DNA from: Escherichia phage TrudiRoth
Sequence record: MZ501109
Length of the DNA stretch: 64,000 bases
Strand: one strand, 5' to 3'
Positions 37,541-49,180 of this stretch are shown here, one piece after another. A program made the translations under genes and the position numbers. The stretch's first letter is position 1; each line of letters opens with the position of its first letter. The notes below the pieces were generated by a model. That model had not been told where the DNA came from. It saw only the letters and a program-made list of their open reading frames with translations, and ran no database searches.

Positions 37541-37563
37541 TAGTTACACGTAATCTTCGAACC

Positions 37564-37802: not shown

Positions 37803-38858
37803 ATGATTAAGACTGGTCTAGTAATTGGTAAGTTCGCACCATTAACACGTGGTCATATTAACCTAATAAACACAGCAGCAACTATGTGTGAACGAGTTAT
37901 AGTTGTAGTTAGTCATGATAATCGCTGGCTGGATAAACAAAACACACGTGATCAGGAAGTCTTACAGTTAAAGAACCGACTTCGTTGGTTAGAACAAACT
38001 TACGCGGATATTGAGCACATTTCGGTAGAGTACATTATTGAAGATGATATTCCTGAATATCCGAATGGTTGGCCGGAATATGCTAGAATACTTAATGAAA
38101 ATTATGGACATTTGCCTGAGATCACCATTTTCTCTAGCGAACTAGACTATGATGCAGAATATAAGAAATATCTGCCGAAGTTTGGTCATTATATTGTAGA
38201 TTCTGATCGGACTCGTGTTCCAATCTCAGCTACAATGATTCGTAATGATCTTATGAAGTATTGGGAGTTTCTTCCTAGCGTAGTTCGTAAAGATTACGTG
38301 CGTAAGGTTGTAATCATTGGGACTGAAAGCTCGGGAAAGACTACTTTAACAAAATACCTTGCGAAGCTATACAACACTTCGTGGGTAGAAGAATATGGTC
38401 GAACGTATTGTGAAGTTGATCTAGTTGGTAACGAAAATCTGCTTACCAGCGAAGATTATAGTAAAATTGCGTTCAGACACAAAGAGCTAGAGTTTGAAGC
38501 AGAACGTACTGCAAATAAGATCATGTTTGTGGATACAAATGCTTTTATTACTGAGTTCTACCACAGACTTTATGAACATAGTAAGAATCCTGTGGTTACA
38601 GCAATTGCAAAAGAAGAACATTATGATTTAGTAATTGTTCTAGCGCCTACTGTCAAGTGGGTAGATGATGGTTTACGTATTAACTCCGATCGTTCAATTA
38701 CTTCTGAACTGTTCGAGCAGATGAAGAAAGAATTTCCAAATCAGTTCCCTGAAGGGCGTACTGTTTACATCGACTCTCCGGACTACAAAGTTCGTATGGA
38801 CGAAGCAGTAAACGCAGTAGACTGGCTGATTCATCACTTTAACGTTGGAGAGTTTTAA
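37803..38858 (+). CDS. NadR-like bifunctional NMN adenylyltransferase / ribosylnicotinamide kinase
   Basis: Nucleotidyltransferase motif GKFAPLTRGH at N-terminus; P-loop kinase IIGTESSGKTT in C-terminal half; start moved to ATG 37803. Confidence 0.7.
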   Translation: MIKTGLVIGKFAPLTRGHINLINTAATMCERVIVVVSHDNRWLDKQNTRDQEVLQLKNRLRWLEQTYADIEHISVEYIIEDDIPEYPNGWPEYARILNENYGHLPEITIFSSELDYDAEYKKYLPKFGHYIVDSDRTRVPISATMIRNDLMKYWEFLPSVVRKDYVRKVVIIGTESSGKTTLTKYLAKLYNTSWVEEYGRTYCEVDLVGNENLLTSEDYSKIAFRHKELEFEAERTANKIMFVDTNAFITEFYHRLYEHSKNPVVTAIAKEEHYDLVIVLAPTVKWVDDGLRINSDRSITSELFEQMKKEFPNQFPEGRTVYIDSPDYKVRMDEAVNAVDWLIHHFNVGEF

Positions 38859-38859
38859 T

Positions 38860-39537
38860 ATGACTAACTATCTCGTAAATGACTTTAAAAACTGGAAACC
38901 TCTGGAATATCTGTGGCTGTTCATAGCGGTTGTCTTCATTAGTTTAGCAAACTATAATGGTACAGCTCTAGATTGGGCTACTGCAATAACCAATGTGGTT
39001 TGTGTTATTCTGGTTGCAAAAGGACGTGTTTCCAACTATATTTGGGGCTTAGTGGGTGTTCTTACATATGGTATTACAGCTTTAAACGCAGATCTTTATG
39101 GTAACGCTGCACTAAACCTGCTATACTACGTTCCTATGCAGTTTTATGGAATGTACTTATGGCATAAAAATAAGCCAAGTAATCTGCCGGATGTTCCAAC
39201 TAAGGTTCTGACTAAAGCCCAAGCTCTGCTGACTCTAGGGATTCTAGCAGTAGCCACGTTAGGGTATGGTAGTTTCTTAGCTACTACGGCTGATCCATTT
39301 CCAATGTTGGATGCATTTACTGCGGTAGGTAGTGTGATCGCTATGTGGCTTATGGTTAAGCAGTATGCCGAGCAGTGGCTGATCTGGATTGCTATTAACA
39401 TTGGTACTGTGTACATTTGGCTTGTAACTGCTCAATCTACAGGTGCATCTTATGCAATCCTAGCAATGTGGCTAGTATTCTTAGGTAACTCTATTATGGG
39501 AGCCTATAAAGGATACTTTGTACGCGTTAACAAATAA
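38860..39537 (+). CDS. PnuC-like nicotinamide riboside/NMN transporter
   Basis: Polytopic membrane protein immediately downstream of the NadR-like gene; multiple Trp/Asn-rich TM helices. Confidence 0.55.
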   Translation: MTNYLVNDFKNWKPLEYLWLFIAVVFISLANYNGTALDWATAITNVVCVILVAKGRVSNYIWGLVGVLTYGITALNADLYGNAALNLLYYVPMQFYGMYLWHKNKPSNLPDVPTKVLTKAQALLTLGILAVATLGYGSFLATTADPFPMLDAFTAVGSVIAMWLMVKQYAEQWLIWIAINIGTVYIWLVTAQSTGASYAILAMWLVFLGNSIMGAYKGYFVRVNK

Positions 39538-39544
39538 AGTAGTT

Positions 39545-39572
39545 ATAGCCCTCGCTTAGAGGGCTATTATAC
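39545..39572 (+). terminator. Rho-independent terminator
   Basis: 9-bp stem atagccctc/gagggctat, loop gctta. Confidence 0.55.
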
Positions 39573-39584
39573 AGAAATTTTCAC

Positions 39585-39613
39585 TTGCTTAATATAGAAA
39601 ATTTCTGTATAAT
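39585..39613 (+). promoter_or_regulatory. early-type sigma70 promoter (TTGCTT-17-TATAAT)
   Basis: ttcacTTGCTTaatatagaaaatttctgTATAATatatttataaatttgagagagg. Confidence 0.6.
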
Positions 39614-39643
39614 ATATTTATAAATTTGAGAGAGGAATCAAAT

Positions 39644-39940
39644 ATGAAACGCATTGTACTTGCATTGACTCTAGTATCTACTTCTGTATTTGCTGCTCCA
39701 CAACAGGAACTTTGTCAAGTTCAAGTTTGTAATAAGCTAGAACGATTTACTCTAGACATTTGGTCACATATTAAAGATAATATGGGTGAACAGTGTTTTG
39801 ATATTGTTCTGCCAAAAGAACAAGCTGTTCCTGGTGCTGTTCTCAGTTCAGAATCACGTTGGTGGCAGGGTTCTTCTATCAATCCAACTAAGAAGTCAGT
39901 GACACGTATCAAACAAGTATATCAGTGCAATGTTCAGTAA
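39644..39940 (+). CDS. secreted small protein (98 aa)
   Basis: Signal peptide MKRIVLALTLVSTSVFA; start placed after RBS. Confidence 0.55.
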   Translation: MKRIVLALTLVSTSVFAAPQQELCQVQVCNKLERFTLDIWSHIKDNMGEQCFDIVLPKEQAVPGAVLSSESRWWQGSSINPTKKSVTRIKQVYQCNVQ

Positions 39941-39948
39941 AATTTCAC

Positions 39949-39977
39949 TTGCTTAATGCCGAAATTTTCTGTATAAT
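39949..39977 (+). promoter_or_regulatory. early-type sigma70 promoter driving a tRNA operon
   Basis: ttcacTTGCTTaatgccgaaattttctgTATAATatattcataatttcggaag; tRNA starts ~15 nt after -10. Confidence 0.6.
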
Positions 39978-39991
39978 ATATTCATAATTTC

Positions 39992-40085
39992 GGAAGATTA
40001 ACCCTAAAGGTAAGGGAGCTGTTTGCTAAACAGCTAGTAGCTGTGGAAACACGGTGTGCCAGTTCGAGTCTGGCATCTTCCTCCA
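39992..40085 (+). tRNA. tRNA-Ser (anticodon GCU), long variable arm
   Basis: Acceptor ggaagat/atcttcc, anticodon loop uuGCUaa, variable-arm hairpin with GAAA loop, T-arm gccagTTCGAGTctggc, CCA. Confidence 0.7.
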
Positions 40086-40090
40086 AATTT

Positions 40091-40168
40091 GGTTCTCAAG
40101 CTCATTTGGTATGAGCCGTCGCCTCATAAGCGAAAGGTAGGTAGGTTCGAATCCTCCGGGAGCCACCA
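40091..40168 (+). tRNA. tRNA with CAU anticodon (Met, fMet or Ile2)
   Basis: Acceptor ggttctc/gggagcc, D-arm gctc-atttggtat-gagc, anticodon loop cuCAUaa, CCA. Confidence 0.65.
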
Positions 40169-40185
40169 ATTAACTAGGAGACGAT

Positions 40186-40371
40186 ATGTCTAAGTTTCAG
40201 GAATTGAAGCAGGAACTAGAAGAGTGTGCCTGCCCAAAATGCTTCGGAGCAGGTGAATGGAACGATGCTGAACCTGGTGATACATGGTATAATACATACG
40301 TTTGTACACATTGTAATGGTTCTGGTATTAATCCTGAATGCGGTATTTCTCTAGGTATTGAGCGAGGCTAA
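40186..40371 (+). CDS. small Cys-rich zinc-ribbon-like protein (61 aa)
   Basis: CACPKCFG ... CTHCNGSG. Confidence 0.5.
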   Translation: MSKFQELKQELEECACPKCFGAGEWNDAEPGDTWYNTYVCTHCNGSGINPECGISLGIERG

Positions 40372-40372
40372 G

Positions 40373-40705
40373 ATGGATATTTACACTACACCAGCAGTAA
40401 ACCTGATTGGCTCTTGCCTTGTGCATTTCCGCTTCTTCCAAACGGATGATAGCAAAGAGGAGTATACCTATCCTCTGATGGATTTTCAGATTGAGGACTT
40501 CTTCCGTGAAGTGCGTAATATCTCTGAGAACTTCTATTATGGCATGGATAAGGAAGACTTTGACATTGAGTTCCCTATAATCTCTCGTTATTTCCTAGAG
40601 CAGTCCGACGCTCGGTTTGAGAAGATTGAACACATGGAAGTAGCCTGGGCTATCCAGTTCGAAATTACTGGCTTTGCTCGATACATTCAAGGTTACGAAC
40701 TATGA
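40373..40705 (+). CDS. hypothetical protein (about 110 aa)
   Basis: Track ORF 40358..40705; start moved to ATG after RBS gagcgagg. Confidence 0.5.
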   Translation: MDIYTTPAVNLIGSCLVHFRFFQTDDSKEEYTYPLMDFQIEDFFREVRNISENFYYGMDKEDFDIEFPIISRYFLEQSDARFEKIEHMEVAWAIQFEITGFARYIQGYEL

Positions 40706-40797
40706 AATTAAAAGATTATTATATTGGTTGGTTTGTAGGACTAATAGTAGGATTTTCACTGGGCTACAACTTGTATCAACTGATAAACTGATTACAT

Positions 40798-40874
40798 GGG
40801 GGTGTAATCGAATTGGCATAGGTACTGGACTTAAAATTCAGGTTTTGTGGGTTCGAATCCCACCACCCCTACCA
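40798..40874 (+). tRNA. tRNA with UAA anticodon (Leu-type) but short variable arm; D-stem poorly defined
   Basis: Acceptor gggggtg/cacccct, anticodon arm ctgga-cuUAAaa-ttcag, T-arm gtgggTTCGAATcccac, A73, CCA. Confidence 0.45.
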
Positions 40875-41025
40875 AATTAAGGAAATAAAATGAAAGCTAT
40901 TAAGAAAGCACTGCGTAAATTTATGTATTGTCGTTTTCATAGCATCAAGGCTTCAACTAATGGTACTACTTACGATCGCTATGATCCTAAGTTTGGCTTA
41001 CATTCTAAATAACTGGAGAAAACAA

Positions 41026-41232
41026 ATGGCTAATCCTGAAATTACGGCACAACGCTTTATGCTGAAAGGAATTATTGCTGAAGCAGGCATGACAGAAGAA
41101 GTTGCAGATTTTCAAAAGCAATTCCTCAATATTCTCACTCAAGCCAAAGAGCTAGGAGAGAAAGAACATGGCGCGGCTATTATGGCAATCACATTGGTTG
41201 GGCTTGATCTGGCTGAAGAATCAGGAGTTTAA
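41026..41232 (+). CDS. hypothetical protein (about 68 aa)
   Basis: Track ORF 40960..41232; start moved to ATG after RBS ctggag. Confidence 0.4.
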   Translation: MANPEITAQRFMLKGIIAEAGMTEEVADFQKQFLNILTQAKELGEKEHGAAIMAITLVGLDLAEESGV

Positions 41233-41262
41233 CTCCTCCAAGCAGAAATTTTAAAAATGTAC

Positions 41263-41292
41263 TTGCTTTTTACTTAAGATTTCTGCTATAAT
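41263..41292 (+). promoter_or_regulatory. early-type sigma70 promoter (TTGCTT-18-TATAAT)
   Basis: gtacTTGCTTtttacttaagatttctgcTATAATagttatataagttgatgagagg. Confidence 0.55.
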
Positions 41293-41321
41293 AGTTATAT
41301 AAGTTGATGAGAGGAATCAGA

Positions 41322-41588
41322 ATGTTAAAACGTTTTGCAGCAACTGGTATTGAAAGCTCAGTATGTAAATCCTGGGGTGGTTGGGAAGGTGAGATCGAGT
41401 GGCTTTATTTCTACAATGTAGAACTTCTTCCAGAGATCAAAGCTCAATGTATTGAGGCTGGTATGGCTCCTGATGCTACGGCTGATGTTGAAATCAGCAT
41501 GAATAAGCTAGAGGGTCGAGTAGTCACTGTTACTGATGAAGGTGAAGAGGTATTCGAACTTCCATTCACTTTGAAAGTCACTCCTTAA
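41322..41588 (+). CDS. hypothetical protein (88 aa)
   Basis: ORF track, start after RBS. Confidence 0.5.
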   Translation: MLKRFAATGIESSVCKSWGGWEGEIEWLYFYNVELLPEIKAQCIEAGMAPDATADVEISMNKLEGRVVTVTDEGEEVFELPFTLKVTP

Positions 41589-41633
41589 TTTGATTAACTG
41601 ATACAGCACTGAGCAAGTTCTTTAAAATTTGAC

Positions 41634-41662
41634 TTGCTCAGTCCTTCAAAACTTGATATAAT
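41634..41662 (+). promoter_or_regulatory. sigma70 promoter (TTGCTC-17-TATAAT) driving a tRNA operon
   Basis: tttgacTTGCTCagtccttcaaaacttgaTATAATagttatc. Confidence 0.55.
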
Positions 41663-41726
41663 AGTTATCTAATTTGGAAAACATATTTAAAAGTGTTTAA
41701 ACTAGTATTTGAATATTTCTAAATAT

Positions 41727-41817
41727 GTTGGATTAGTATCGTAGAGGTAGCGAAGCAGACTGTAAATCTGCCGACTCGGAAGGGTCTCGGGTGGTTCGAC
41801 TCCATCATCCAACACCA
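41727..41817 (+). tRNA. tRNA-Tyr (anticodon GUA), long variable arm
   Basis: Perfect acceptor gttggat/atccaac, anticodon arm gcaga-cuGUAaa-tctgc, CCA. Confidence 0.7.
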
Positions 41818-41824
41818 AATTTAA

Positions 41825-41901
41825 GTCCTGTTAGACAAACTGGTAAAGTCACTACCCTTTCAAGGTAGGATTTGCGGGTTCGATCCCCGCACAGGACGCC
41901 A
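41825..41901 (+). tRNA. tRNA-Glu (anticodon UUC)
   Basis: Acceptor gtcctgt/acaggac, anticodon arm ctacc-cuUUCaa-ggtag, T-arm gcgggTTCGATCcccgc, CCA. Confidence 0.75.
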
Positions 41902-41904
41902 ATT

Positions 41905-41986
41905 TCTGCATTCCTAGAGTGTTACTGGACAGCATGTCGGTCTCCAAAACCGTACGGTCTAGGTTCGAGTCCTAGTAGGTTTGCCA
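41905..41986 (+). other. tRNA-like element lacking a pairing 5' acceptor strand (possible degenerate tRNA)
   Basis: Anticodon-like loop cuCCAaa, T-arm ctaggTTCGAGTcctag, 3' ...taggtttgCCA; no complementary 5' 7-mer found upstream. Confidence 0.3.
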
Positions 41987-41992
41987 ATATTT

Positions 41993-42067
41993 GCACCTTT
42001 AGCTGAGATGGATTAGCGCTTGCCTGAAGAGCTTGAGAGGTTCGTTCGATACGAACAGGGTGCACCA
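41993..42067 (+). tRNA. tRNA-Phe (anticodon GAA), weak anticodon stem
   Basis: Acceptor gcacctt/agggtgc, D-stem gctg/tagc, anticodon loop cuGAAga with two U-U mismatches in stem, T-arm gttcgTTCGATAcgaac, CCA. Confidence 0.55.
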
Positions 42068-42084
42068 ATTTGAAGGAGATGCTG

Positions 42085-42357
42085 ATGCATCCTGAAAACT
42101 TCTTTATTTACTGTGCGGATAAGTCACTGAAACGCAGAATTAACAAAGTCTATCATTATCGTGCTAGTCAACAGCCTTATGTTTATGCTTTTGATGGAGA
42201 TTACATCCCACTAGAACAGTTGGCCTGTGATTACATGGTTTTGAAGAACTTTGACGAGACAAAGATCTCAAGCGTTCATAATCGACAGAACCCGTTAACG
42301 TGGAAATATAAGAAGAAAAAGAAAGGCATCAAATTCTTAAAAAATGTAGTTGCTTAA
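42085..42357 (+). CDS. hypothetical protein (about 90 aa)
   Basis: Track ORF 42070..42357; start moved to ATG after RBS aaggag. Confidence 0.5.
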   Translation: MHPENFFIYCADKSLKRRINKVYHYRASQQPYVYAFDGDYIPLEQLACDYMVLKNFDETKISSVHNRQNPLTWKYKKKKKGIKFLKNVVA

Positions 42358-42378
42358 CCGCTTAAAGTTCTGTATAAT
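42350..42378 (+). promoter_or_regulatory. early-type sigma70 promoter (TTGCTT-17-TATAAT)
   Basis: tgtagTTGCTTaaccgcttaaagttctgTATAATtattacataaattgaactggag. Confidence 0.6.
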
Positions 42379-42407
42379 TATTACATAAATTGAACTGGAG
42401 AAGCAAC

Positions 42408-42632
42408 ATGACAGAACAAGAATTGAAAGAACGTAAGCTGGTAATGCTTCGCTTACTAAACATTTTCTCTGGTATGGATGGTGGTATTGACTTCATTCAA
42501 CTACGCACTTTTGTAGAAGAAGCAGAAGGCGAGGCTATCACTAGGATTCTTAAACATATGGGTTTGTTACTAGATGCTGCTAATGTGGCTACTCAATATA
42601 AACTCGAAGATTTACCGGAGCGTGTTAAATGA
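42408..42632 (+). CDS. hypothetical protein (74 aa)
   Basis: ORF track, start after RBS. Confidence 0.5.
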   Translation: MTEQELKERKLVMLRLLNIFSGMDGGIDFIQLRTFVEEAEGEAITRILKHMGLLLDAANVATQYKLEDLPERVK

Positions 42633-42820
42633 AAATGTTAGTTAAATTTAAGTGTTGTGGTTCTGAACATATTTTCACTCGTTATAGAGAGTTTAAGATG
42701 TGTGAGTGCGGTAAATCAGGCTACGATGCTGGAGATGGCTATTATGCTAGATCTATAGGACATTCTAAAGATCTAGAGTTTACTAATCTCGAAAAGCAAG
42801 ATAAATCGACCGTTGGCTGA
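42629..42820 (+). CDS. small Cys-containing protein (63 aa); 3' end overlaps a tRNA gene
   Basis: ORF track. Confidence 0.45.
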   Translation: MKMLVKFKCCGSEHIFTRYREFKMCECGKSGYDAGDGYYARSIGHSKDLEFTNLEKQDKSTVG

Positions 42821-42882
42821 ATGGCTTAGGCGGAGGCCTGCAAAACCTCCTTATGTGAGTTCGAATCTCATGCGGTCGTCCA
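42807..42882 (+). tRNA. tRNA-Cys (anticodon GCA)
   Basis: Acceptor cgaccgt/gcggtcg, anticodon arm gaggc-cuGCAaa-acctc (one C-A mismatch), T-arm gtgagTTCGAATctcat, CCA. Confidence 0.6.
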
Positions 42883-42889
42883 AATTTTA

Positions 42890-42972
42890 GGGTCGTTAGC
42901 CAAGCGGTTTGGCGGTGGACTGTTAATCCATGTCGAAAGACAACGTAGGTTCGAATCCTACACGGCCCGCCA
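42890..42972 (+). tRNA. tRNA with GUU anticodon (Asn-type) carrying an atypical 13-nt variable arm
   Basis: Acceptor gggtcgt/acggccc, anticodon arm gtgga-cuGUUaa-tccat, variable gtc-GAAA-gac mini-hairpin, T-arm gtaggTTCGAATcctac, CCA. Confidence 0.5.
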
Positions 42973-43075
42973 TATTCTGTGTAGAGTTAAGTAAACCGGT
43001 AGCCAACCAGCTATCATTGCTGATATCGAATTCAGTCACAGATACCATTTTTCATTAACAACTGAGGAAATAGAT

Positions 43076-43261
43076 ATGACAACTCGTGCAATTGCTCGAC
43101 TAGAAGCTGATCGTGATAATCTGATTAATAATATTAAGGTTCGTGGTAATATTATTAAGGCTCTGAAAGCTGAACTTCTTGAAGAACTTCAAGGTCAAGT
43201 AGAGCGTCGTGAAGCTCTAAAAGAGGTTGAGGAAGCTATCGAAAAACTCAAAACTGAGTAA
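43076..43261 (+). CDS. small coiled-coil protein (61 aa)
   Basis: ORF track. Confidence 0.45.
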   Translation: MTTRAIARLEADRDNLINNIKVRGNIIKALKAELLEELQGQVERREALKEVEEAIEKLKTE

Positions 43262-43264
43262 ATT

Positions 43265-43846
43265 ATGCACGGAATATCCTTACCCATTCCAGGGTTTGAG
43301 GAGTACTTAGTAAGTTTGGATGGGTTAGTATTTAGTATCAAATCAAACAAAATACTAACCCAAATAACCAGTAATTACGGATACTTATCTATACGTCTCC
43401 ATAAAAATGGTCAACAGAGAAATACCGGTGTACATAGGATTTTAGCATGTGCATTTAAGAAATTACCAAGTCTAGACTCTGAACTAGAAGTTGACCATAT
43501 TAACACAGACATTACTTATTGGGGTCTTAATAACTTACAAGTGCTCACAAAAGAGCAGCATCTAGAAAAGACTTTAAAAGATAAAGGATTTAGTAAACTA
43601 AACCATGATAATTGTTGTAAGGATTGTGGTAAAGCTATTTCTTTAAAAGCTGAAAAATGTCAGGAGTGCTCTTCACATAAACCAAAAGATATCTCTATAA
43701 CTAAAGAAATAATCGAGGTTACAGTAAGAGAGCTAGGCTGGTCAGGTGCAGGGAGAAAGTTAAGTTATTCAGATAATGGGTTGCGTAAAAGATACACTTC
43801 TTTAGGAGGCAATCCTAAAGAACTTAAAAAGTTAAAGGTACTATAG
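43265..43846 (+). CDS. HNH homing endonuclease (HNH_3-like); 3' end overlaps tRNA-Asp
   Basis: HRILACAF...EVDHINTDITYWGLNNLQVLTKEQH; Cys-rich CKDCGKAIS...CQEC. Confidence 0.7.
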   Translation: MHGISLPIPGFEEYLVSLDGLVFSIKSNKILTQITSNYGYLSIRLHKNGQQRNTGVHRILACAFKKLPSLDSELEVDHINTDITYWGLNNLQVLTKEQHLEKTLKDKGFSKLNHDNCCKDCGKAISLKAEKCQECSSHKPKDISITKEIIEVTVRELGWSGAGRKLSYSDNGLRKRYTSLGGNPKELKKLKVL

Positions 43847-43911
43847 TCTAACGGTTAGGATACTCCCCTGTCACGGGAGAGGTAGGGTTTCGATTACCCT
43901 TAGTACCGCCA
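43837..43911 (+). tRNA. tRNA-Asp (anticodon GUC)
   Basis: Perfect acceptor ggtacta/tagtacc, anticodon arm ctccc-cuGUCac-gggag, T-arm agggtTTCGATTaccct, CCA. Confidence 0.75.
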
Positions 43912-43917
43912 AATTAT

Positions 43918-43994
43918 ACATCCATAGCTCAATTGGTTAGAGCTACCGCCTCTTAAGCGGTAGGTTCTAGGTTCAAGTCCTAGTGGGTGTACCA
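43918..43994 (+). tRNA. tRNA-Lys (anticodon CUU)
   Basis: Acceptor acatcca/tgggtgt, D-arm gctc-aattggtta-gagc, anticodon arm accgc-cuCUUaa-gcggt, T-arm ctaggTTCAAGTcctag, CCA. Confidence 0.65.
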
Positions 43995-44207
43995 AACATC
44001 AGAGCAGCGTGATGTACTGCAAAGACCCAAAGTCCGGGGTGGACTTCTTGATTCAAAGGAGCAGGCACTAATTATCATTCTAGCGTGGTGGAGAGGGGAC
44101 ACCAGCTTGCCGAGGGTAGAAGCTCGTTCGATTCGAGTGAAAGAATGGTTCTCGTAAATCCGCACAAGTGATAGCAGGTTCAAGTCCTGCCTAGATTGAC
44201 TTATTAT

Positions 44208-44281
44208 GCGTTCGTAGTTAAAAGGTATAATTTTTGGTTGCCAACCAGAAGTTGAGGGTTCGATTCCCTCCGACCGCACCA
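44208..44281 (+). tRNA. tRNA-Gly (anticodon GCC)
   Basis: Acceptor gcgttcg/cgaccgc (one mismatch), anticodon arm tttgg-uuGCCaa-ccaga, T-arm gagggTTCGATTccctc, CCA. Confidence 0.6.
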
Positions 44282-44590
44282 AATCTATCAAACCAAGCCT
44301 GCGCATTCGTGTAACAACTTGTGCGTCTGTAAGGTGATAGTAAACAAGCCACGGAGTTCCGGCCGTTCAACGTGGTAAAATCTTCTGAATAACAGGTCGT
44401 GGATACCTCTTTGGAGGCTCAACGGAAACGCAGGAGTGTAAGTAAACGAAAGTTTACTTATTATGTAGGTTCCGATAGATCGGCGGGTCTATTCTGGCAT
44501 TTAAGAGAAGTCTCGCAAACTTCTTTGTCAGCCGTGGGGTTGGTAGCCTCCAGGTGGCCTACACAATAAGTAAATTTATTAAAAATTAAT

Positions 44591-44619
44591 TTGCTATTCT
44601 GCTTAATTATCTGTATAAT
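44591..44619 (+). promoter_or_regulatory. early-type sigma70 promoter (TTGCTA-17-TATAAT)
   Basis: ttaatTTGCTAttctgcttaattatctgTATAATatattttataaagtgaataga. Confidence 0.6.
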
Positions 44620-44653
44620 ATATTTTATAAAGTGAATAGAAGGAAGTTAACAA

Positions 44654-44893
44654 ATGAAAAAATATTCAGAAGAATTTCTAGAAGATATGGATTTACATTA
44701 CCTGTTAACTTTGGTTTTAGAAGAAAAAATCTATGACCAATTTGATCTAGAAGGTCTTACAAAAGTAGATTGTATTCGTGCCCTTCTCACTGTTGAAACT
44801 CGCTATTTCGAATGTCAACAGTGTGGTGAAGTTAATGAGTGCTCTTGGGAATGTCCAGAGTGTGGATATGACGATCTGCTTGAAACAGAATAA
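44654..44893 (+). CDS. small zinc-ribbon protein (79 aa)
   Basis: CQQCGEVNECSWECPECG. Confidence 0.5.
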   Translation: MKKYSEEFLEDMDLHYLLTLVLEEKIYDQFDLEGLTKVDCIRALLTVETRYFECQQCGEVNECSWECPECGYDDLLETE

Positions 44894-44896
44894 TAT

Positions 44897-44973
44897 CTCC
44901 GATTAGCTCAATTGGTTAGAGCTACCGCCTCTTAAGCGGTAGGTTCTAGGTTCAAGTCCTTCATTGGAGACCA
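44897..44973 (+). tRNA. second tRNA-Lys(CUU)-like gene with weakened T-stem (possibly degenerate)
   Basis: D-arm, anticodon arm and T-loop identical to the 43918 copy; acceptor ctccgat/attggag; T-stem only 3 bp. Confidence 0.45.
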
Positions 44974-44979
44974 AACAAT

Positions 44980-45057
44980 TGCGGGTTAGATCTTTGGTAG
45001 AGATCGCTAGTCTCATAAGCTAGAAAGAGGTAGGTTCGATTCCTGCACCCGCTTCCA
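44980..45057 (+). tRNA. tRNA with CAU anticodon (Met/fMet/Ile2), U1-U72 mismatch
   Basis: Acceptor tgcgggt/acccgct with mismatched first pair, anticodon arm ctagt-cuCAUaa-gctag, T-arm gtaggTTCGATTcctgc, CCA. Confidence 0.55.
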
Positions 45058-45078
45058 ATTTAATAGAAGGATTTCGAA

Positions 45079-45243
45079 ATGAAATTATTTCGTTTAAAAG
45101 TAAGTGATTTACGTTCTAGCAAAGATCGTAAGAAGTATCCACTAGCCCATTACGGTAAAGATGAAAACGAAGTGATGGCGGAATTTGGTATTAATCACCC
45201 TTACTTAAAAGTTTATTCTATTAAGGAAGTCTATGCTAATTAA
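45079..45243 (+). CDS. small ORF (54 aa), below ORF-track threshold
   Basis: Own translation MKLFRLKVSDLRSSKDRKKYPLAHYGKDENEV... Confidence 0.35.
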   Translation: MKLFRLKVSDLRSSKDRKKYPLAHYGKDENEVMAEFGINHPYLKVYSIKEVYAN

Positions 45244-45706
45244 TAAAGTTTTAGCTGCCTTAAACCTTCCTGATAACTTCATTATAGATGATAAGCTCAT
45301 AAGAGCTTATATGAGCAAATATAACGAAATTTCAGGTAAAGAAGGTAAGTTAAAAACTTCAGAGTTTAGATTCTGTTATCGAATGGCAGCCTTAAATCTC
45401 TTAAAATATAAAAGGGAGCATAAAATACCTATAACGGAAGGTTTTGTATATGTAATTGGTAATCCAGCATGGCCAGGCATGTATAAAATAGGTATGACTA
45501 TAGATGTGAATGAGAGGTTAACAAGTTATCAAACTTATTCACCTAATAGAGACTACAAGCTATACCATTTCAGATTTTCGTCGGATAAAAGACGTACAGA
45601 GAAAGAATTACATAATCTTCTTAAAGATTATAGAGTATCTGGAGAATGGTTTGAAGTACCTGTACTAGATGCTTTTAAATTATTAGTAGAAAAATTGGAT
45701 TGCTAG
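45233..45706 (+). CDS. T5orf172-like (GIY-YIG-related) putative homing endonuclease; 3' end overlaps a tRNA
   Basis: GFVYVIGNPAWPGMYKIGMT... and YRVSGEWFEV; recalled from the T5orf172 domain, not searched. Confidence 0.5.
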   Translation: MLINKVLAALNLPDNFIIDDKLIRAYMSKYNEISGKEGKLKTSEFRFCYRMAALNLLKYKREHKIPITEGFVYVIGNPAWPGMYKIGMTIDVNERLTSYQTYSPNRDYKLYHFRFSSDKRRTEKELHNLLKDYRVSGEWFEVPVLDAFKLLVEKLDC

Positions 45707-45774
45707 CTCAACTGGATAAGAGTAGCGGACCTTTAATCCGTCAGTTCTGGGTTCGAATCCCAGGCAATCCACCA
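45697..45774 (+). tRNA. tRNA-Lys (anticodon UUU) with C at position 33
   Basis: Perfect acceptor ggattgc/gcaatcc, D-stem gctc/gagt, anticodon arm gcgga-ccUUUaa-tccgt, T-arm ctgggTTCGAATcccag, CCA. Confidence 0.6.
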
Positions 45775-45778
45775 AATT

Positions 45779-45852
45779 GCTCGGTTAGTTTAATGGGAGA
45801 ACCCCGTCTTTACACGGCGGTTGCGATAGTTCGATTCTATCACCGAGTACCA
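45779..45852 (+). tRNA. tRNA-Val (anticodon UAC)
   Basis: Acceptor gctcggt/accgagt, D-stem gttt/gaac, anticodon arm ccgtc-uuUACac-gacgg, T-arm gatagTTCGATTctatc, CCA. Confidence 0.7.
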
Positions 45853-45870
45853 CTCAACTAAAATAAGGAA

Positions 45871-46113
45871 TTGCAAATGCAATTATCATCTAAAGTTCAA
45901 GGTTTCTTCGCACATGCAACAGCAGAATTTGCTATTAGCAAGGGTTGGGATTTTGAGCAAGAACTTTCTGAGTTCTATAAAGATATAGATATGAATACGC
46001 CATACATGGGACTCTCCACTGGTCAAGAGATCACAGAAGGCGATGTGTTCAAGGCAAGTCAAGGTGAGGTAACACCTAGTTTTGCCGCTTTTTTGGAGTG
46101 GCTTCACAATTAA
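45871..46113 (+). CDS. hypothetical protein (80 aa)
   Basis: ORF track. Confidence 0.5.
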   Translation: MQMQLSSKVQGFFAHATAEFAISKGWDFEQELSEFYKDIDMNTPYMGLSTGQEITEGDVFKASQGEVTPSFAAFLEWLHN

Positions 46114-46222
46114 AGAAGAAGCTCCAGATGATGATGTATTTATGCAAAGCATGCACTCTGGGAGTTCTGATATGTTATTTGTTAAAGATGTACGACATAT
46201 CCAAGAAGTGGTAAAAACGCAG

Positions 46223-46251
46223 TTGCTTAATGCTTAATTTCTTGTTATAAT
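46223..46251 (+). promoter_or_regulatory. early-type sigma70 promoter followed by ~330 nt with no ORF, then tRNAs
   Basis: cagTTGCTTaatgcttaatttcttgtTATAATatttatataaattgatgcg. Confidence 0.6.
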
Positions 46252-46585
46252 ATTTATATAAATTGATGCGAAAATAGCTGCCTAGATACCAGGTGTATGA
46301 CGTCTACACTAGCAGAGCTACCGAAAAAGAGATCCTCAGGATAAACGTCGTAGCAAAATTAGTCTGGTATCCATTAATTTAGTTCACTAAGGTATTAGCT
46401 CGACCTAGGACTGGCTGCCAAAAAGCACGATCCCTACGATTTGGGAGAAGTTCTAGATTAGTCCACTAGATTCAGCGGCAACTGAATAGTGTATCGGGTT
46501 TGTGAAGAGCAGCTATTCTCTACTGGCTAATGTCTGAGGTTAGTACGCACACCGAGCTAATAGCCTTAGTAAACTTAAAGAATTT

Positions 46586-46661
46586 GGGCGAATAGTGTCA
46601 GCGGGAGCACACCAGACTTGCAAGTCTGGTAGGGAGGGTTCGAGTCTCTCTTTGTCCACCA
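46586..46661 (+). tRNA. non-canonical tRNA (GCA-containing anticodon arm; loop of 8 or 6 nt)
   Basis: Acceptor gggcgaa/tttgtcc, D-arm gtgt-cagcggga-gcac, anticodon arm is a perfect 18-nt palindrome ccagacttgcaagtctgg, T-arm gagggTTCGAGTctctc, CCA. Confidence 0.45.
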
Positions 46662-46676
46662 AATTAAAAAGAATGC

Positions 46677-46753
46677 GCGCGATTGACGGAATAGGTATAC
46701 GTGTCAGCCTTAGAAGTTGAATTTTGAGGGTTCGAATCCCTTGTCGCGCACCA
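46677..46753 (+). tRNA. tRNA with UAG anticodon (Leu-type) but short variable arm
   Basis: Perfect acceptor gcgcgat/gtcgcgc, anticodon arm tcagc-cuUAGaa-gttga, T-arm gagggTTCGAATccctt, A73, CCA. Confidence 0.5.
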
Positions 46754-46878
46754 AATTTGATGGTCAGAGTAAATTAAACCTACTATCTCGGTTGAGCTGT
46801 TTTAATGGATTCGAATCCCAGCGAGGCGTAACTGCCTGGCGTGATAGAGGCATCATTCCACTAACATTGGAAAAACTA

Positions 46879-47109
46879 ATGAAACGAAAATTAAAAAAGT
46901 CTTATATAATTAAGATAAATAAGCTACGAAGTAGGGCAAAAGGATGGCCACTTCGAATATTAATTGCGGATAACCATATTAGATACCATGCGGAACAACA
47001 TCATTACAAACAGTGGGAGTCATACTGTCGCTCAAAAGCAGGTCGTTTAGATGGATCTTATGAGCTTCTATTTGGTAAGAAGCCTACTAGATTAGCTTTA
47101 GGTAAGTAA
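46879..47109 (+). CDS. small basic protein (about 76 aa)
   Basis: Track ORF 46717..47109 truncated to internal ATG because its 5' part overlaps tRNA/tRNA-like sequence. Confidence 0.4.
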   Translation: MKRKLKKSYIIKINKLRSRAKGWPLRILIADNHIRYHAEQHHYKQWESYCRSKAGRLDGSYELLFGKKPTRLALGK

Positions 47110-47114
47110 TACTT

Positions 47115-47208
47115 GGAAAAGCAAATAGACTGGCGACTAAACCCGATTGGAAATCGGTTGAGTAATAGCAATATTGCCTTATGGGTTCAACTCCCATCTT
47201 TTCCGCCA
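47115..47208 (+). tRNA. tRNA-Ser (anticodon GGA), long variable arm
   Basis: Perfect acceptor ggaaaag/cttttcc, anticodon arm ccga-uuGGAaa-tcgg, T-arm atgggTTCAACTcccat, CCA. Confidence 0.7.
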
Positions 47209-47223
47209 AATATTGGAGTATAG

Positions 47224-47739
47224 ATGCTAACACAACAAGAATTAAAATCCGTGTTGTTATATAAACCAGATACTGGAGAGTTTTTCTGGAAATATAGATC
47301 TGATTTAGATAGTCAATGGAATAGTAAATATGCTGGAACTAGGGCAGGATTTATTAATGAACTAGGCTATTGGAAGATAACTCTAGGAAATACTAGCTGG
47401 TTAGCACATCGTCTAGCATTCTTATACATGACTGGGGAAATACCAGATCTAATTGACCACAAGGATCAAGATAAGTCCAATACTAAATGGGATAACTTAC
47501 GAATAGCCACTGTATCACAGAATCAGGCTAATGCTAAATTAAGGGTAGATAATACCTCTGGGTACAAAAATGTAACTTGGCATAAGCAAAGAAATAAGTG
47601 GAAAGTAGAAGTACGTAAAGATGGCAAACTCCATTATGGTGGACTTTTTACAGAACTAGATAAAGCTGTAAATAAAGCTAATAATCTTAGACGTGAGTTA
47701 TTCGGGGAATTTGCAGTATATGAAGAGTTTATGGGGTAG
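47224..47739 (+). CDS. HNH-AP2 homing endonuclease (paralog); 3' end overlaps tRNA-Ser
   Basis: HRLAFLYMTGEIPDLIDHKDQDKSNTKWDNLRIATVSQNQAN and AP2-like SGYKNVTWHKQRNKWKVEVRKDGK. Confidence 0.75.
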   Translation: MLTQQELKSVLLYKPDTGEFFWKYRSDLDSQWNSKYAGTRAGFINELGYWKITLGNTSWLAHRLAFLYMTGEIPDLIDHKDQDKSNTKWDNLRIATVSQNQANAKLRVDNTSGYKNVTWHKQRNKWKVEVRKDGKLHYGGLFTELDKAVNKANNLRRELFGEFAVYEEFMG

Positions 47740-47829
47740 GTCAATCCAACGGCTGGCGCTGGACTCCGACTTGAAATCGGTTGATCGTAGTGATACGGTG
47801 TAAGGGTTCGATCCCCTTACCTACCTCCA
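47735..47829 (+). tRNA. tRNA-Ser (anticodon UGA), long variable arm
   Basis: Perfect acceptor ggtaggt/acctacc, D-stem tcca/tgga, anticodon arm ccga-cuUGAaa-tcgg, T-arm aagggTTCGATCccctt, CCA. Confidence 0.7.
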
Positions 47830-47849
47830 ATTAACTATAAGGAATCCTT

Positions 47850-48023
47850 ATGAGCAAAACAGCTACTGTAACAATGAAGGATGGTACAAAATTTAAAGCA
47901 TGTCTTCATGAAACAGATAATGGATGGAAGGCTTATTTGCCACACCTAGATTCCACTGGGTATGGAATGACCCAACGTGAAGCTATTGTTGATGCTTTAA
48001 ATGAGGCTTCCGCTGGTTTATAA
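47850..48023 (+). CDS. small ORF (57 aa), below ORF-track threshold
   Basis: Own translation MSKTATVTMKDGTKFKACLHETDNGWKAY...; RBS taaggaatcc. Confidence 0.35.
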   Translation: MSKTATVTMKDGTKFKACLHETDNGWKAYLPHLDSTGYGMTQREAIVDALNEASAGL

Positions 48024-48029
48024 AAATTC

Positions 48030-48160
48030 TTGGAATATGCCGGAATTGGTAGACGGGACTGCCGAATAGGTTTACTAGGAACATCCACTCCTAGAAATAT
48101 ACCTTAAAAGCGGTTGAGTTAAATGGTATAACTCATGAAGGTTCAAGTCCTTCTATTCCT
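48030..48160 (+). tRNA. tRNA-Leu(UAA)-like gene (type II) with ~40-nt insertion in the anticodon arm; 131 nt, no encoded CCA
   Basis: Acceptor tggaata/tattcct (6 of 7 bp), UG at 8-9, Leu-type D-arm ccg-GAATTGGTAGA-cgg, stem actgc(48057-61)/gcggt(48109-13) separated by 47 nt ending in cuUAAaa, 6-bp variable hairpin, T-arm gaaggTTCAAGTccttc. Confidence 0.4.
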
Positions 48161-48282
48161 TGATACATCAATGGCTCAAAGTGTAACGGTGCTATTTGAT
48201 GCTCTTGGCAAGACTTCCCCGACATGCGTTCGGGAGTAAGCTGCTAAGACTAGAGTAGAAGAGTTTCAACAAGACAACGATA

Positions 48283-48357
48283 GCTCTTAAAGCATTGCTG
48301 GCGATGCAGTTGCCTTGTAAGCATCTGAACCGGGTTCGATTCCTAGTGGGAGCACCA
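48283..48357 (+). tRNA. tRNA-Thr (anticodon UGU)
   Basis: Acceptor gctctta/tgggagc, D-stem gcat/atgc, anticodon arm gttgc-cuUGUaa-gcatc, T-arm ccgggTTCGATTcctag, CCA. Confidence 0.6.
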
Positions 48358-48373
48358 AAATTAAAAAATTCAT

Positions 48374-48402
48374 TTGCCTTCTCTCTTATTTCTTGTTATT
48401 AT
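48374..48402 (+). promoter_or_regulatory. sigma70 promoter (TTGCCT-17-TATTAT)
   Basis: ttcatTTGCCTtctctcttatttcttgtTATTATatttatataaattaatgagaggg. Confidence 0.55.
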
Positions 48403-48432
48403 ATTTATATAAATTAATGAGAGGGAAACCAA

Positions 48433-48726
48433 ATGAAACGTTATCTTTCTGTTATGTTCCAAACTGGTGGTCAACGCTATACTTATGAATTTCCATCTTC
48501 TTGGAAGATCAAAGAAGGTGATCAAGTAGTAGTGTTAACACCGCGTGATGGTTTCAAGGTAGTAACGGTTAAGCAAGTATTTCCAAAAGATCACGAACCA
48601 TCTAAGGCTATTCAGTACAAGATGATTCATGGTCTGGTACGAAAAGTACCTAGAACAGAAGTCGAAGTAGATAAAACTGGGGAAGCTAAATACCAGTATA
48701 CCTCTTACTTAGACGAGTTGTTATAA
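48433..48726 (+). CDS. hypothetical protein (97 aa)
   Basis: ORF track, promoter and RBS. Confidence 0.55.
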   Translation: MKRYLSVMFQTGGQRYTYEFPSSWKIKEGDQVVVLTPRDGFKVVTVKQVFPKDHEPSKAIQYKMIHGLVRKVPRTEVEVDKTGEAKYQYTSYLDELL

Positions 48727-48932
48727 TGGGAATTACTTTCACAGAAAAGATTATGGGCAATGGTGTTATGATCATTACCGCATGGGATGGTAATCAGTGG
48801 TGTAGTGTTTCAGGTATTAAGCCTGAAGAACAAACACTAGAAAATATCTCAAAGATTAAGCGAAGAATGGCAGAACGTGCACGACTTCCAGGTGCGCCTA
48901 GAAATGGTAAACGTTCTGCAATTAAATGTTAA
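48726..48932 (+). CDS. hypothetical protein (68 aa)
   Basis: ORF track. Confidence 0.5.
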   Translation: MGITFTEKIMGNGVMIITAWDGNQWCSVSGIKPEEQTLENISKIKRRMAERARLPGAPRNGKRSAIKC

Positions 48933-48934
48933 TG

Positions 48935-49011
48935 CTTCGGTAGCTTAGCGATCTAAAGCACTCGGCTGATAACCGAGAGATCGGGGGTTTAAATCCCTCC
49001 CGGAGTACCAA
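48935..49011 (+). tRNA. tRNA-Ile (anticodon GAU)
   Basis: Acceptor gcttcgg/ccggagt, D-stem gctt/aagc, anticodon arm ctcgg-cuGAUaa-ccgag, T-arm gggggTTTAAATccctc, CCA. Confidence 0.7.
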
Positions 49012-49104
49012 ATTTAGGAAGTAAGACTATGCGTCCAGGAAAGTTTAAAAAAAAAAAAAAGCTAATTGGTCTAAAGAGTATAAAGAATATTTACTTAGTC
49101 TAGT

Positions 49105-49180
49105 AAAACATAATAGTTAGTTGGCAGAGTGGTTATGCACCTCCTTCATACGGAGCGACTACAGTGGTTCAAATCCACTA
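49105..49180 (+). tRNA. tRNA with CAU anticodon (Met/fMet/Ile2)
   Basis: Perfect acceptor agttagt/actaact, anticodon arm ctcc-uuCAUac-ggag, T-arm agtggTTCAAATccact, CCA. Confidence 0.6.

What the first reader, a model, noticed from the sequence alone, without database searches (positions are those of the whole stretch)
40798..46753. Type-I tRNAs with leucine-type anticodons, and a GUU tRNA with a long extra arm
Hand folds give 76-77-nt cloverleaves with short variable arms and A73 for anticodons UAA (40798-40874) and UAG (46677-46753), which in bacteria normally belong to long-arm type-II tRNA-Leu. Conversely a GUU (Asn-type) tRNA at 42890-42972 carries a 13-nt variable region folding as gtc-GAAA-gac. 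The 40798 D-stem is poorly defined. These may be phage tRNAs for rare host codons with altered identity or decoding.
Basis: seen in the sequence. Interest (0 to 1): 0.5.

Follow-up and report, generated by a model that had tools for sequence, protein, structure and literature searches.

The report
Armless leucine tRNAs, long-armed asparagine tRNA
A T5-like phage carries two leucine tRNAs that lack the usual long extra arm and an asparagine tRNA that has gained one; all three look like working tRNAs with normal identity, and these odd shapes are common in phage tRNA clusters but barely described.

Summary
ARAGORN and Rfam call tRNA-Leu(UAA) at 40798-40874, tRNA-Asn(GUU) at 42890-42972 and tRNA-Leu(UAG) at 46677-46753. 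They lie in a 23-tRNA array of a T5-like phage (Epseptimavirus).

Both Leu tRNAs have a 5-nt variable loop. They keep the elements E. coli LeuRS is reported to use: A73, U8:A14, A15:U48, G18G19, A20a and a Leu-type 3-bp D stem. The "poor D stem" is simply that Leu architecture. With the anticodon masked, their bodies score as tRNA-Leu. Stems covary strongly across 74 viral relatives. The BF23 homologue is annotated as an effective amber suppressor.

The Asn tRNA keeps GUU and G73, plus a GUC-GAAA-GAC hairpin.

In related phages the same gene slots hold Leu(UAG) with 5-15-nt variable regions and Asn with 5 or 13 nt. The phage uses CUA about 5 times and UUA about 2 times more than E. coli.

Both shapes are widespread in viral contigs. 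The long-arm Asn pattern is nearly absent from bacterial genomes. I found no paper describing either.

Verdict: genuine Leu and Asn tRNAs of unusual structural class. Altered identity is not supported. Why the arms changed is unknown; nuclease evasion is plausible but untested.

The parts
36283..49190 (+). tRNA gene array of a T5-like phage: 23 tRNA genes, all with encoded CCA, interleaved with small ORFs, homing-endonuclease ORFs and T5-type 'stable RNAs'
   Evidence: ARAGORN. Rfam. 96.8% identity to E. coli phage Shin27, an Epseptimavirus. Segment parse.
40798..40874 (+). tRNA-Leu(UAA), type I. Anticodon 40832-40834, variable loop GTTTT, A73, D arm ATC-GAATTGGCATA-GGT.
   Evidence: 100% identical in most of about 290 phage records, where it is annotated tRNA-Leu. 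With the anticodon masked, the body scores Leu_I 59.9 and Leu_II 42.0.
42890..42972 (+). tRNA-Asn(GUU) with an expanded variable region. Anticodon 42922-42924, G73.
   Evidence: At least 99% identical in 206 phage records. Body scores Asn_long 49.1 and Asn_I 42.9.
42932..42944 (+). 13-nt variable region of the Asn tRNA: GTC-GAAA-GAC hairpin plus an AAC tail
   Evidence: Relatives have GTTC-GAAA-GAAC, one extra base pair. Across 98 distinct viral variable regions, 84% form a stem of at least 3 bp against 43% of shuffles, and GNRA loops dominate.
46677..46753 (+). tRNA-Leu(UAG), type I. Anticodon 46711-46713, variable loop ATTTT, A73, D arm ACG-GAATAGGTATA-CGT.
   Evidence: Body scores Leu_I 49.9 and Leu_II 43.0; the next model, Gly, scores 28.6. 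83% identical to BF23 tRNAL1, which is annotated as an effective amber suppressor after an anticodon swap.
43265..43846 (+). NUMOD4/HNH homing-endonuclease-like ORF inside the array (context for cassette exchange)
   Evidence: Pfam NUMOD4 at 3.5e-5; HNH_3 weak.
47224..47739 (+). HNH endonuclease ORF inside the array (context)
   Evidence: Pfam HNH_3 at 3.8e-13.

Best explanation
All three are genuine, expressed, cognately charged phage tRNAs of unusual structural class.

The two Leu tRNAs descend from ordinary long-arm tRNA-Leu and have lost the arm. They are still leucylated by host LeuRS because that enzyme reads A73 and the D/T-loop corner (U8:A14, A15:U48, G18G19, A20a), not the arm or the anticodon. 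They supply decoding of UUA/UUG and CUA/CUG, which this AT-rich phage uses 2-5 times more than E. coli.

The GUU tRNA is an asparagine tRNA. AsnRS reads GUU plus G73. A small structured hairpin is inserted in the variable region and is tolerated.

Armed and arm-less alleles circulate as interchangeable cassettes in the homing-endonuclease-rich tRNA arrays of T5-like phages.

Shown here: tRNA fold, identity elements, conservation, covariation, synteny, codon match. Shown only in a database note: translational function of the BF23 homologue. Inferred: charging with Leu and Asn, and expression of these exact genes.
For: (1) tRNA calls and scores.

(2) Leu identity set. A73, U8, A14, A15, G18G19, the A at alignment column 21 (which I take to be A20a; invariant) and the U48 column (at least 90% T) are conserved across 74 distinct viral type-I Leu tRNAs. 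The D arm has the same 3-bp-stem, 11-nt-loop layout as E. coli leuZ and leuW. The review PMC9976931 states that A73 is crucial for E. coli LeuRS, that the long arm and the anticodon are not, that A15-U48, G18G19 and A20a are essential, and that variants missing the arm stay active.

(3) Body identity. With the anticodon masked and the variable region removed, 113 of 152 viral type-I Leu score best against the type-II Leu model. E. coli leuZ and leuW score second-best on the type-I model, about 43 bits against about 30 for other models.

(4) Covariation. 99.2% of cells are paired, 19 of 20 pairs show changes on both sides, and 0 of 500 shuffles reach the observed values.

(5) Function. The BF23 record notes that its 77-nt tRNAL1 becomes an 'effective amber suppressor' after an anticodon swap.

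(6) Interchangeability. In 28 T5-like loci the slot Ala-Leu(UAG)-Ser/His holds variable regions of 5, 9, 11, 13 or 15 nt. The slot Cys-Asn-Asp holds 5 or 13 nt.

(7) Conservation. Leu(UAA) is at least 99% identical in 291 records and Asn in 206.

(8) Codon match.

(9) Asn. GUU plus G73 is a transplantable Asn identity set (PMC9976931). G73 is almost universal in about 100 distinct long-arm GUU tRNAs, and the arm covaries.
Against: There are no aminoacylation or expression data for these exact genes. The BF23 suppressor note does not say which amino acid is inserted, and amber suppressors are often mischarged. E. coli LeuRS did not charge the type-I tRNALeu(CAA) of Streptomyces coelicolor, and those authors state that it charges only type II (PMC6614811). 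The two Leu sequences do not reach the cloverleaf as their minimum-energy fold. This window's Leu(UAG) variant is rare, with a best full-length identity of 85.7%, and it sits next to an aberrant tRNA-Ala, so this corner of the array may be in flux. For the wider long-arm GUU class, body scores most often resemble Ser, Cys or Tyr rather than ordinary Asn. The sequences in the covariation set were found by ARAGORN, which itself requires a cloverleaf. They were also partly selected by my search pattern.
Confidence: 0.8

Rival explanations
1. Variable-arm remodelling is an immune-evasion adaptation layered on normal identity. Loss or shortening of the arm in Leu, and gain of an arm in Asn, would make the phage copies poor substrates for host tRNA-targeting nucleases or toxins that bind or cut the variable region or the adjacent 3' side of the anticodon stem. 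The synthetases would still accept them.
For: There is a precedent in the same phage family. [quoted passage not shown] Septu also cuts that loop (PMC13096335). The toxin MenT3 selects tRNA-Ser through arm length and orientation (PMC11541572). PARIS AriB cleaves host tRNA Lys, Thr and Asn at positions 40/41 (PMC12409363). At one syntenic slot, Leu(UAG) occurs with five different arm lengths, and Tyr also varies from 81 to 91 nt, which looks like diversification. Long arms in viral arrays concentrate in a few isotypes: Asn, Thr(UGU), Ile(UAU), Cys and Met. They are essentially absent from Gly, Arg, Ala and Phe.
Against: No nuclease is known to me that targets the arm of tRNA-Leu in enterobacteria. 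The window's Asn tRNA keeps the exact host AriB site context U36-A-A-U-C|C41. The PARIS authors report that Bas34, a T5 relative, is not rescued by its own tRNA-Asn and needs the T5 copy. Whether Bas34 carries the long-arm form was not verified. Neutral drift plus cassette shuffling would also produce length variation.
Confidence: 0.25
2. Altered identity or recoding. The type-I tRNAs with Leu anticodons would carry another amino acid. Or the long-arm GUU tRNA would be charged by a class-II-tRNA synthetase, most plausibly SerRS, so that AAY codons are partly read as Ser.
For: The Asn tRNA has a long arm, G73 and G1-C72/G2-C71, which overlaps the E. coli serine set. Bodies of the wider long-arm GUU class score best on Ser (36), Cys (20) and Tyr (15) models out of 104. 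Some annotators label type-I Leu homologues 'tRNA-Pseudo-TAG' or 'tRNA-OTHER'.
Against: The complete cognate identity sets are present. [quoted passage not shown] The arm here has only 3 bp and 13 nt, against 22-23 nt in this phage's own tRNA-Ser. This particular Asn body scores higher on ordinary Asn (42.9) than on Tyr (40.6), and Ser is not in its top five. Alleles with normal and abnormal arms swap at the same slot among sister phages. Asn codon usage in the window is unremarkable. tRNAscan-SE isotype models gave Leu as the top isotype for the Leu(UAG) of phage Sf14, which has the same CTTAGAA loop; its variable-arm type was not checked (PMC12482277).
Confidence: 0.05
3. These are decaying or non-functional tRNA genes, or tRNA-like relics, carried along in a mosaic array.
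For: The array does hold damaged-looking genes. One is a tRNA-Ala with an 8-nt anticodon loop at 46586. Another is a chimeric Lys(CUU) with a mismatched T stem at 44897. The Leu minimum-energy folds are not cloverleaves.
Against: The sequences are perfectly conserved over hundreds of genomes. Compensatory changes occur in every helix. All tertiary and identity nucleotides are intact. The BF23 homologue works in translation.
Confidence: 0.04

Closest known systems
tRNA gene region of phages T5 and BF23 (Ksenzenko laboratory records AY543070 and NC_042564)
   Same: Same array, gene order, promoters, stable RNAs and homing endonucleases. BF23 tRNAL1 is a 77-nt type-I Leu(UAG), 83% identical to the window's, with a functional (suppressor) note.
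   Different: T5 itself has an 85-nt long-arm Leu(UAG), an ordinary 78-nt Asn and no Leu(UAA). The window's Leu(UAG) sequence variant is rare. Neither record comments on the arm.
Type-I tRNALeu(CAA) of Streptomyces coelicolor (PMC6614811)
   Same: A bacterial-world tRNA-Leu with a short variable loop that coexists with type-II tRNA-Leu and a single LeuRS.
   Different: It is chromosomal, its anticodon is CAA, and it needs a Streptomyces-specific LeuRS feature. E. coli LeuRS did not charge it. The phage tRNAs must work with enterobacterial LeuRS, and they keep the E. coli-type D loop and A15:U48.
Animal mitochondrial tRNA-Leu(UUR)/(CUN)
   Same: Leu tRNAs without the long arm. Identity rests on A73 and A14.
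   Different: Separate compartment, dedicated LeuRS and degenerate structures. No evolutionary link is implied.
Engineered minimal E. coli tRNA-Leu lacking the variable arm (summarised in PMC9976931)
   Same: Shows that arm-less tRNA-Leu with A73 and intact D/T-loop contacts is an E. coli LeuRS substrate. The phage tRNAs look like natural versions.
   Different: These are laboratory constructs, tested in vitro.
Nematode nev-tRNAs and other V-arm tRNAs with non-Leu/Ser anticodons (PMC3333845)
   Same: A long variable arm on a tRNA whose anticodon belongs to a normally type-I family.
   Different: nev-tRNAs are charged with Leu, which is a changed identity. The phage GUU tRNAs have G73 and the Asn set, so unchanged identity is expected. 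Their arm is much shorter.
T5 tRNA-Tyr with a distinctive variable loop that resists Retron-Eco7 PtuAB (PMC13096335, PMC11555353)
   Same: Same phage family. A remodelled variable region leaves function intact.
   Different: That tRNA remains type II, and the nuclease and the benefit are demonstrated. Neither is known for Leu or Asn.

Membership tests
tRNA (Rfam RF00005) | Cloverleaf with T loop and a covariance-model score above the gathering threshold | tested here: met
   57.4, 59.0 and 55.6 bits against a threshold of 29, over the full model 1-71. ARAGORN cloverleaves.
tRNA-Leu (E. coli LeuRS identity set) | Discriminator A73 | tested here: met
   A73 in both window tRNAs. 153 of 158 unique viral type-I Leu have A73.
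tRNA-Leu (E. coli LeuRS identity set) | Tertiary corner: U8:A14, A15:U48, G18G19 at the Leu position, A20a, and T loop U54, U55, C56, A58 | tested here: met
   All are present in both window tRNAs. Columns T8, A14, A15, G18, G19 and A21 are invariant in 74 relatives, and the U48 column is at least 90% T. The D-loop length is the same as in leuZ and leuW.
tRNA-Leu (bacterial canonical form) | Long variable arm (type II, more than 10 nt) | tested here: not met
   The variable loops are 5 nt. The review reports that the arm is not an identity element for E. coli LeuRS.
tRNA-Leu | Actual aminoacylation with leucine | not testable with these tools
   Only indirect evidence: the BF23 homologue is noted as an effective amber suppressor.
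tRNA-Asn (E. coli AsnRS identity set) | Anticodon G34 U35 U36 plus G73 | tested here: met
   The set is described as transplantable in PMC9976931.
Type II (class II) tRNA | Variable region longer than 10 nt forming a stem-loop | tested here: met
   Met for Asn only: 13 nt with a 3-bp stem and GAAA loop. The stem covaries in relatives.
tRNA-Ser (rival identity for the GUU tRNA) | Long variable arm of tRNA-Ser size and orientation, with G1-C72, G2-C71 and G73 | tested here: inconclusive
   G73, G1-C72 and G2-C71 are present. The arm is 13 nt, against 22-23 nt in the phage's own tRNA-Ser. The Ser model is not among this tRNA's top five. Serylation itself was not testable.
Suppressor tRNA | Anticodon complementary to a stop codon (CUA, UUA or UCA) | tested here: not met
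   The anticodons are UAA and UAG, which pair with UUA/UUG and CUA/CUG.

The most novel reading that the evidence does not exclude
Switching of the tRNA structural class may be a widespread, isotype-specific phage strategy. The long variable arm is lost from Leu and gained by Asn, and in other phages by Thr(UGU), Ile(UAU), Cys and Met. Synthetase identity would be kept, while the surface read or cut by host tRNA-targeting immune nucleases and toxins would change. [quoted passage not shown]
Probability: 0.25. Interest if true: 0.7.

Novelty: new variant of a known kind. Interest (0 to 1): 0.45.

Why it matters
Textbooks and recent papers treat the long arm as a fixed feature of bacterial tRNA-Leu, and treat tRNA-Asn as strictly short-armed. 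Here both rules are broken by tRNAs that must work with ordinary E. coli and Salmonella synthetases. The same rule-breaking recurs in hundreds of sequenced phages and in many uncultured viral contigs.

In viral loci picked for an unrelated feature, about 30% of Leu-anticodon tRNAs were arm-less (36 of 121). In loci picked for the Leu feature, about 20% of unique Asn tRNAs were long-armed (8 of 41).

This gives natural test substrates for LeuRS and AsnRS recognition. It also flags a source of 'pseudo' and 'other' calls in phage tRNA annotation.

With T5 tRNA-Tyr, Lys, Thr and Asn now known to defeat specific defence nucleases, it points to the variable region as a place to look for further host-phage conflict. 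If there is no such conflict, the finding is a curiosity of tRNA evolution in mobile arrays.

Tried and rejected
1. Thermodynamic folding as support for the Leu tRNAs. The minimum-energy folds are not cloverleaves, with z about -1.2, so I did not use them.

2. Recent capture from the host. BLAST of the Leu(UAA) and Asn tRNAs against 5,426 E. coli genomes gave no match or only noise. They are not host copies.

3. Suppressor reading of 'UAA' and 'UAG'. Rejected, because these are anticodons for sense codons.

4. Origin of the long-arm Asn from tRNA-Tyr(GUA) through A36U plus A73G. Many members of the wider class do resemble Tyr or Ser in their D arm and arm layout. For this window's tRNA, however, the ordinary Asn model scores highest among the independent models, 42.9 against 40.6 for Tyr. 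I left this unresolved and make no claim.

5. The long arm as protection from PARIS AriB. The cleavage-site context is unchanged, so nothing supports it directly.

6. Literature searches for a prior description of type-I Leu or long-arm Asn tRNAs in phages. None was found. Older subscription and Russian-language papers from the T5 tRNA field are not in the library, so prior description cannot be excluded.

7. A control genome scan for ordinary-length Asn tRNAs with the same flanks. The rarity of the long-arm pattern in bacteria (16 hits) therefore lacks a matched denominator.

Full report
**What the window is.** The region matches T5-like phages (Demerecviridae, genus Epseptimavirus). The best hit is E. 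coli phage Shin27 at 96.8% identity, and 574 phage records match in all. ARAGORN finds 23 tRNA genes between 36283 and 49190. Rfam confirms them. All 23 encode CCA. The array is interleaved with small ORFs and with homing-endonuclease-type ORFs: NUMOD4/HNH at 43265-43846, HNH at 47224-47739 and a T5orf172 domain at 45233-45706. It also holds homologues of the T5 'stable RNAs of unknown function'.

**Checking the observation.**
- Rfam scores are 57.4, 59.0 and 55.6 bits against a threshold of 29.
- Both Leu tRNAs have 5-nt variable loops (GTTTT and ATTTT).
- The Asn tRNA has a 13-nt variable region, GTC-GAAA-GAC-AAC. RNAfold recovers it as an extra hairpin on a normal cloverleaf, z = -2.3.
E. 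coli leuZ (GTG-GAATCGGTAGA-CAC) and leuW (GCG-AAATTGGTAGA-CGC) have the same layout.

**Are the Leu-anticodon tRNAs really tRNA-Leu?**

Identity elements. A review of tRNA identity states four things about E. coli (PMC9976931):
- A73 is crucial, while the anticodon and the long arm are not.
- A15-U48, G18G19 and A20a are essential.
- D/T-loop contacts matter.
- Variants lacking the arm remain active.

Both window tRNAs have every one of these.

Body similarity. I built isotype profile HMMs from about 2,000 viral tRNAs that are not T5-like. The anticodon was masked and the variable region removed.
- The window's Leu(UAG) scores 49.9 on type-I Leu and 43.0 on type-II Leu. The next model reaches 28.6.
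- Leu(UAA) scores 59.9 and 42.0, although a non-Leu model (long-arm Asn, 41.6) comes close to the second value.
- E. coli leuZ and leuW score second-best on the type-I model, about 43 against about 30 for others.
- Across the class, 113 of 152 type-I sequences have type-II Leu as their best foreign model, and 109 of 117 do so in the reverse direction.

Covariation. In 74 distinct viral type-I Leu tRNAs, 99.2% of stem cells pair, 19 of 20 pairs show changes on both sides, and no shuffle in 500 reaches this. Positions U8, A14, A15, G18, G19, column 21 (which I take to be A20a), A35 and A73 are invariant. One caveat applies: ARAGORN's own cloverleaf requirement and my search pattern both favour pairing.

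Function. The BF23 tRNA-region record carries the depositors' note that its 77-nt tRNAL1 becomes an 'effective amber suppressor' when given a CUA anticodon. That tRNA is 83% identical to the window's Leu(UAG). The homologue therefore works in E. coli translation, although the inserted amino acid is not stated.

One published result cuts the other way. E. coli LeuRS failed to charge the type-I tRNALeu(CAA) of Streptomyces coelicolor (PMC6614811).

**Evolutionary setting.** In 28 T5-like loci the gene order is conserved but the alleles differ.
- The slot Ala-Leu(UAG)-Ser/His holds variable regions of 5 nt (16 loci), 9 (3), 11 (2), 13 (6) or 15 nt (1).
- The slot Cys-Asn-Asp holds 13 nt (17 loci) or 5 nt (10 loci). 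T5 and BF23 are among the 5-nt loci.
- Leu(UAA) is always 5 nt and nearly invariant, at least 99% identical in 291 records.
- The long-arm Asn is at least 99% identical in 206 records. At 78-92% identity it also occurs in phages of other groups that infect Proteus, Serratia, Klebsiella, Enterobacter, Cronobacter and Aeromonas.

Sister phages on the same hosts use either form, so the forms are probably functionally equivalent for translation.

**Breadth beyond T5-like phages.** Among 3,618 tRNAs called in the fetched loci:
- In loci picked for the unrelated Asn pattern, 36 of 121 Leu-anticodon tRNAs are type I.
- 153 of 158 unique type-I Leu have A73.
- Long-arm GUU tRNAs have variable regions of 8-21 nt. 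G73 is almost universal, and the stems clearly covary: GCGAAAGC, GCTTCGGC, GTCGAAAGAC, GTTCGAAAGAAC, GAGGGAAACCTC and others.
- 84% form a stem of at least 3 bp, against 43% of shuffles. There are 56 distinct stems, and GNRA loops dominate.

The same Asn pattern occurs only 16 times in one genome from each of 185,579 bacterial and archaeal species. Most of those hits lie inside dense tRNA arrays on metagenome-assembled contigs. No matched control scan was possible.

Long arms in viral arrays are isotype-specific. They are common in Asn, Thr(UGU), Ile(UAU), Cys and Met, and essentially absent in Gly, Arg, Ala and Phe.

**What the tRNAs do.** ORFs in the window use CUA for 17.8% of Leu codons, against 3.5% in a 50-kb E. 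coli sample. UUA is 21.3% against 11.2%, and CUG is 23% against 52%. The two Leu tRNAs therefore match the phage's demand. Asn codon usage is unremarkable.

**Why the arms changed is not established.** Immune evasion is an attractive reading.
- T5 tRNA-Tyr resists Retron-Eco7 because of its distinctive variable loop, and Septu also cuts that loop (PMC13096335).
- The toxin MenT3 selects tRNA-Ser through arm length and orientation (PMC11541572).
- PARIS AriB cleaves host tRNA Lys, Thr and Asn, and the T5 versions rescue infection (PMC12409363).

Against this, the window's Asn keeps the host cleavage-site context U36AAUC|C41. A T5 relative that encodes its own tRNA-Asn still needed the T5 copy. 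I know of no nuclease that targets the tRNA-Leu arm. I give this layer about 0.25.

Recoding is disfavoured, whether by non-Leu charging or by serylation of the GUU tRNA. The cognate identity sets are intact, the arm is short, and alleles are interchangeable. I give it about 0.05. Pseudogene status is contradicted by conservation, covariation and the BF23 note.

**Novelty.** The genes are routinely annotated as tRNA-Leu and tRNA-Asn, occasionally as 'Pseudo' or 'OTHER'. One homologue was tested functionally long ago, so the objects themselves are not new. I found no paper that describes type-I tRNA-Leu or long-arm tRNA-Asn in phages. A 2019 paper presents Streptomyces as the first case of one LeuRS serving both tRNA-Leu types. 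Older T5 literature is outside the searchable library. I therefore rate this a new variant of a known kind, of moderate interest.

Noticed in passing
window 46586-46661 (+): ARAGORN calls this 'tRNA-?(tgca)'. It is the T5 tRNA-Ala(UGC) sequence (G3:U70, A73; the Ala profile scores 42.7) with one extra G after the anticodon loop and a C-to-T change in the T stem. The result is either an 8-nt anticodon loop or a 6-bp stem with a 6-nt loop. It is unique to this window among 28 T5-like loci. It could be a sequencing error, a damaged gene or an unusual decoder.
   Followed up: partly
window 44897-44973 (+): A second 'tRNA-Lys(CUU)' sits where relatives have tRNA-Pro(UGG). Its body, positions 8 to about 62, is identical to the Lys(CUU) gene at 43918. 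Its acceptor stem is Pro-like (CTCCG...) and its T stem is mismatched (CTAGG/CCTTC). It looks like a gene-conversion chimera and is unique to this window.
   Followed up: partly
window 42975-43047, 44076-44200, 44463-44565, 46393-46505, 48029-48172, 48173-48267, 35093-35750: Homologues of the T5 'stable RNAs with unknown functions': rna3, rna2, rnaIV, rna2H, rna1, rnaI and rnaX, at 80-99% identity. rna3, described as tRNA-like, directly follows the Asn gene in both T5 and this phage, although the Asn alleles differ.
   Followed up: partly
loci L003, L007, L009, L010, L012 (T5-like) and many IMG/VR loci: Other normally short-armed isotypes also occur with structured long variable arms in phage arrays. 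One example is an 87-nt tRNA-Thr(UGU) in several T5-like phages. Others are Ile(UAU) of 91-94 nt, Cys of 83-91 nt, Met of 86-87 nt and Lys of 85-91 nt. This window's Thr(UGU) is the ordinary 75-nt form.
   Followed up: partly
window 47735-47825 (+) and 48093-48161 (+): There are sub-threshold Rfam hits that ARAGORN does not call as tRNAs: tRNA-Sec model at 38.3 bits (cut-off 47) and tRNA at 23.9 bits. The second lies inside the rna1 'tRNA-like' homologue. The first may be a degenerate long-arm tRNA.
   Followed up: no
window 41727-41817 (+) and T5-like loci: tRNA-Tyr(GUA) in this phage is 91 nt with an 18-nt variable region. Among T5-like phages it varies between 81, 87, 88 and 91 nt at the same slot. 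This parallels the arm-length variation of Leu(UAG), and the arm is the region implicated in Retron-Eco7 and Septu resistance.
   Followed up: no
locus L269 (Candidatus Solibacter MAG contig, 8.4 kb): A 23-tRNA array on a short MAG contig combines a long-arm Asn (89 nt) with four short Leu tRNAs of 77-79 nt (UAA, CAA, CAG, GAG). Both oddities therefore co-occur far from enterobacterial phages.
   Followed up: no
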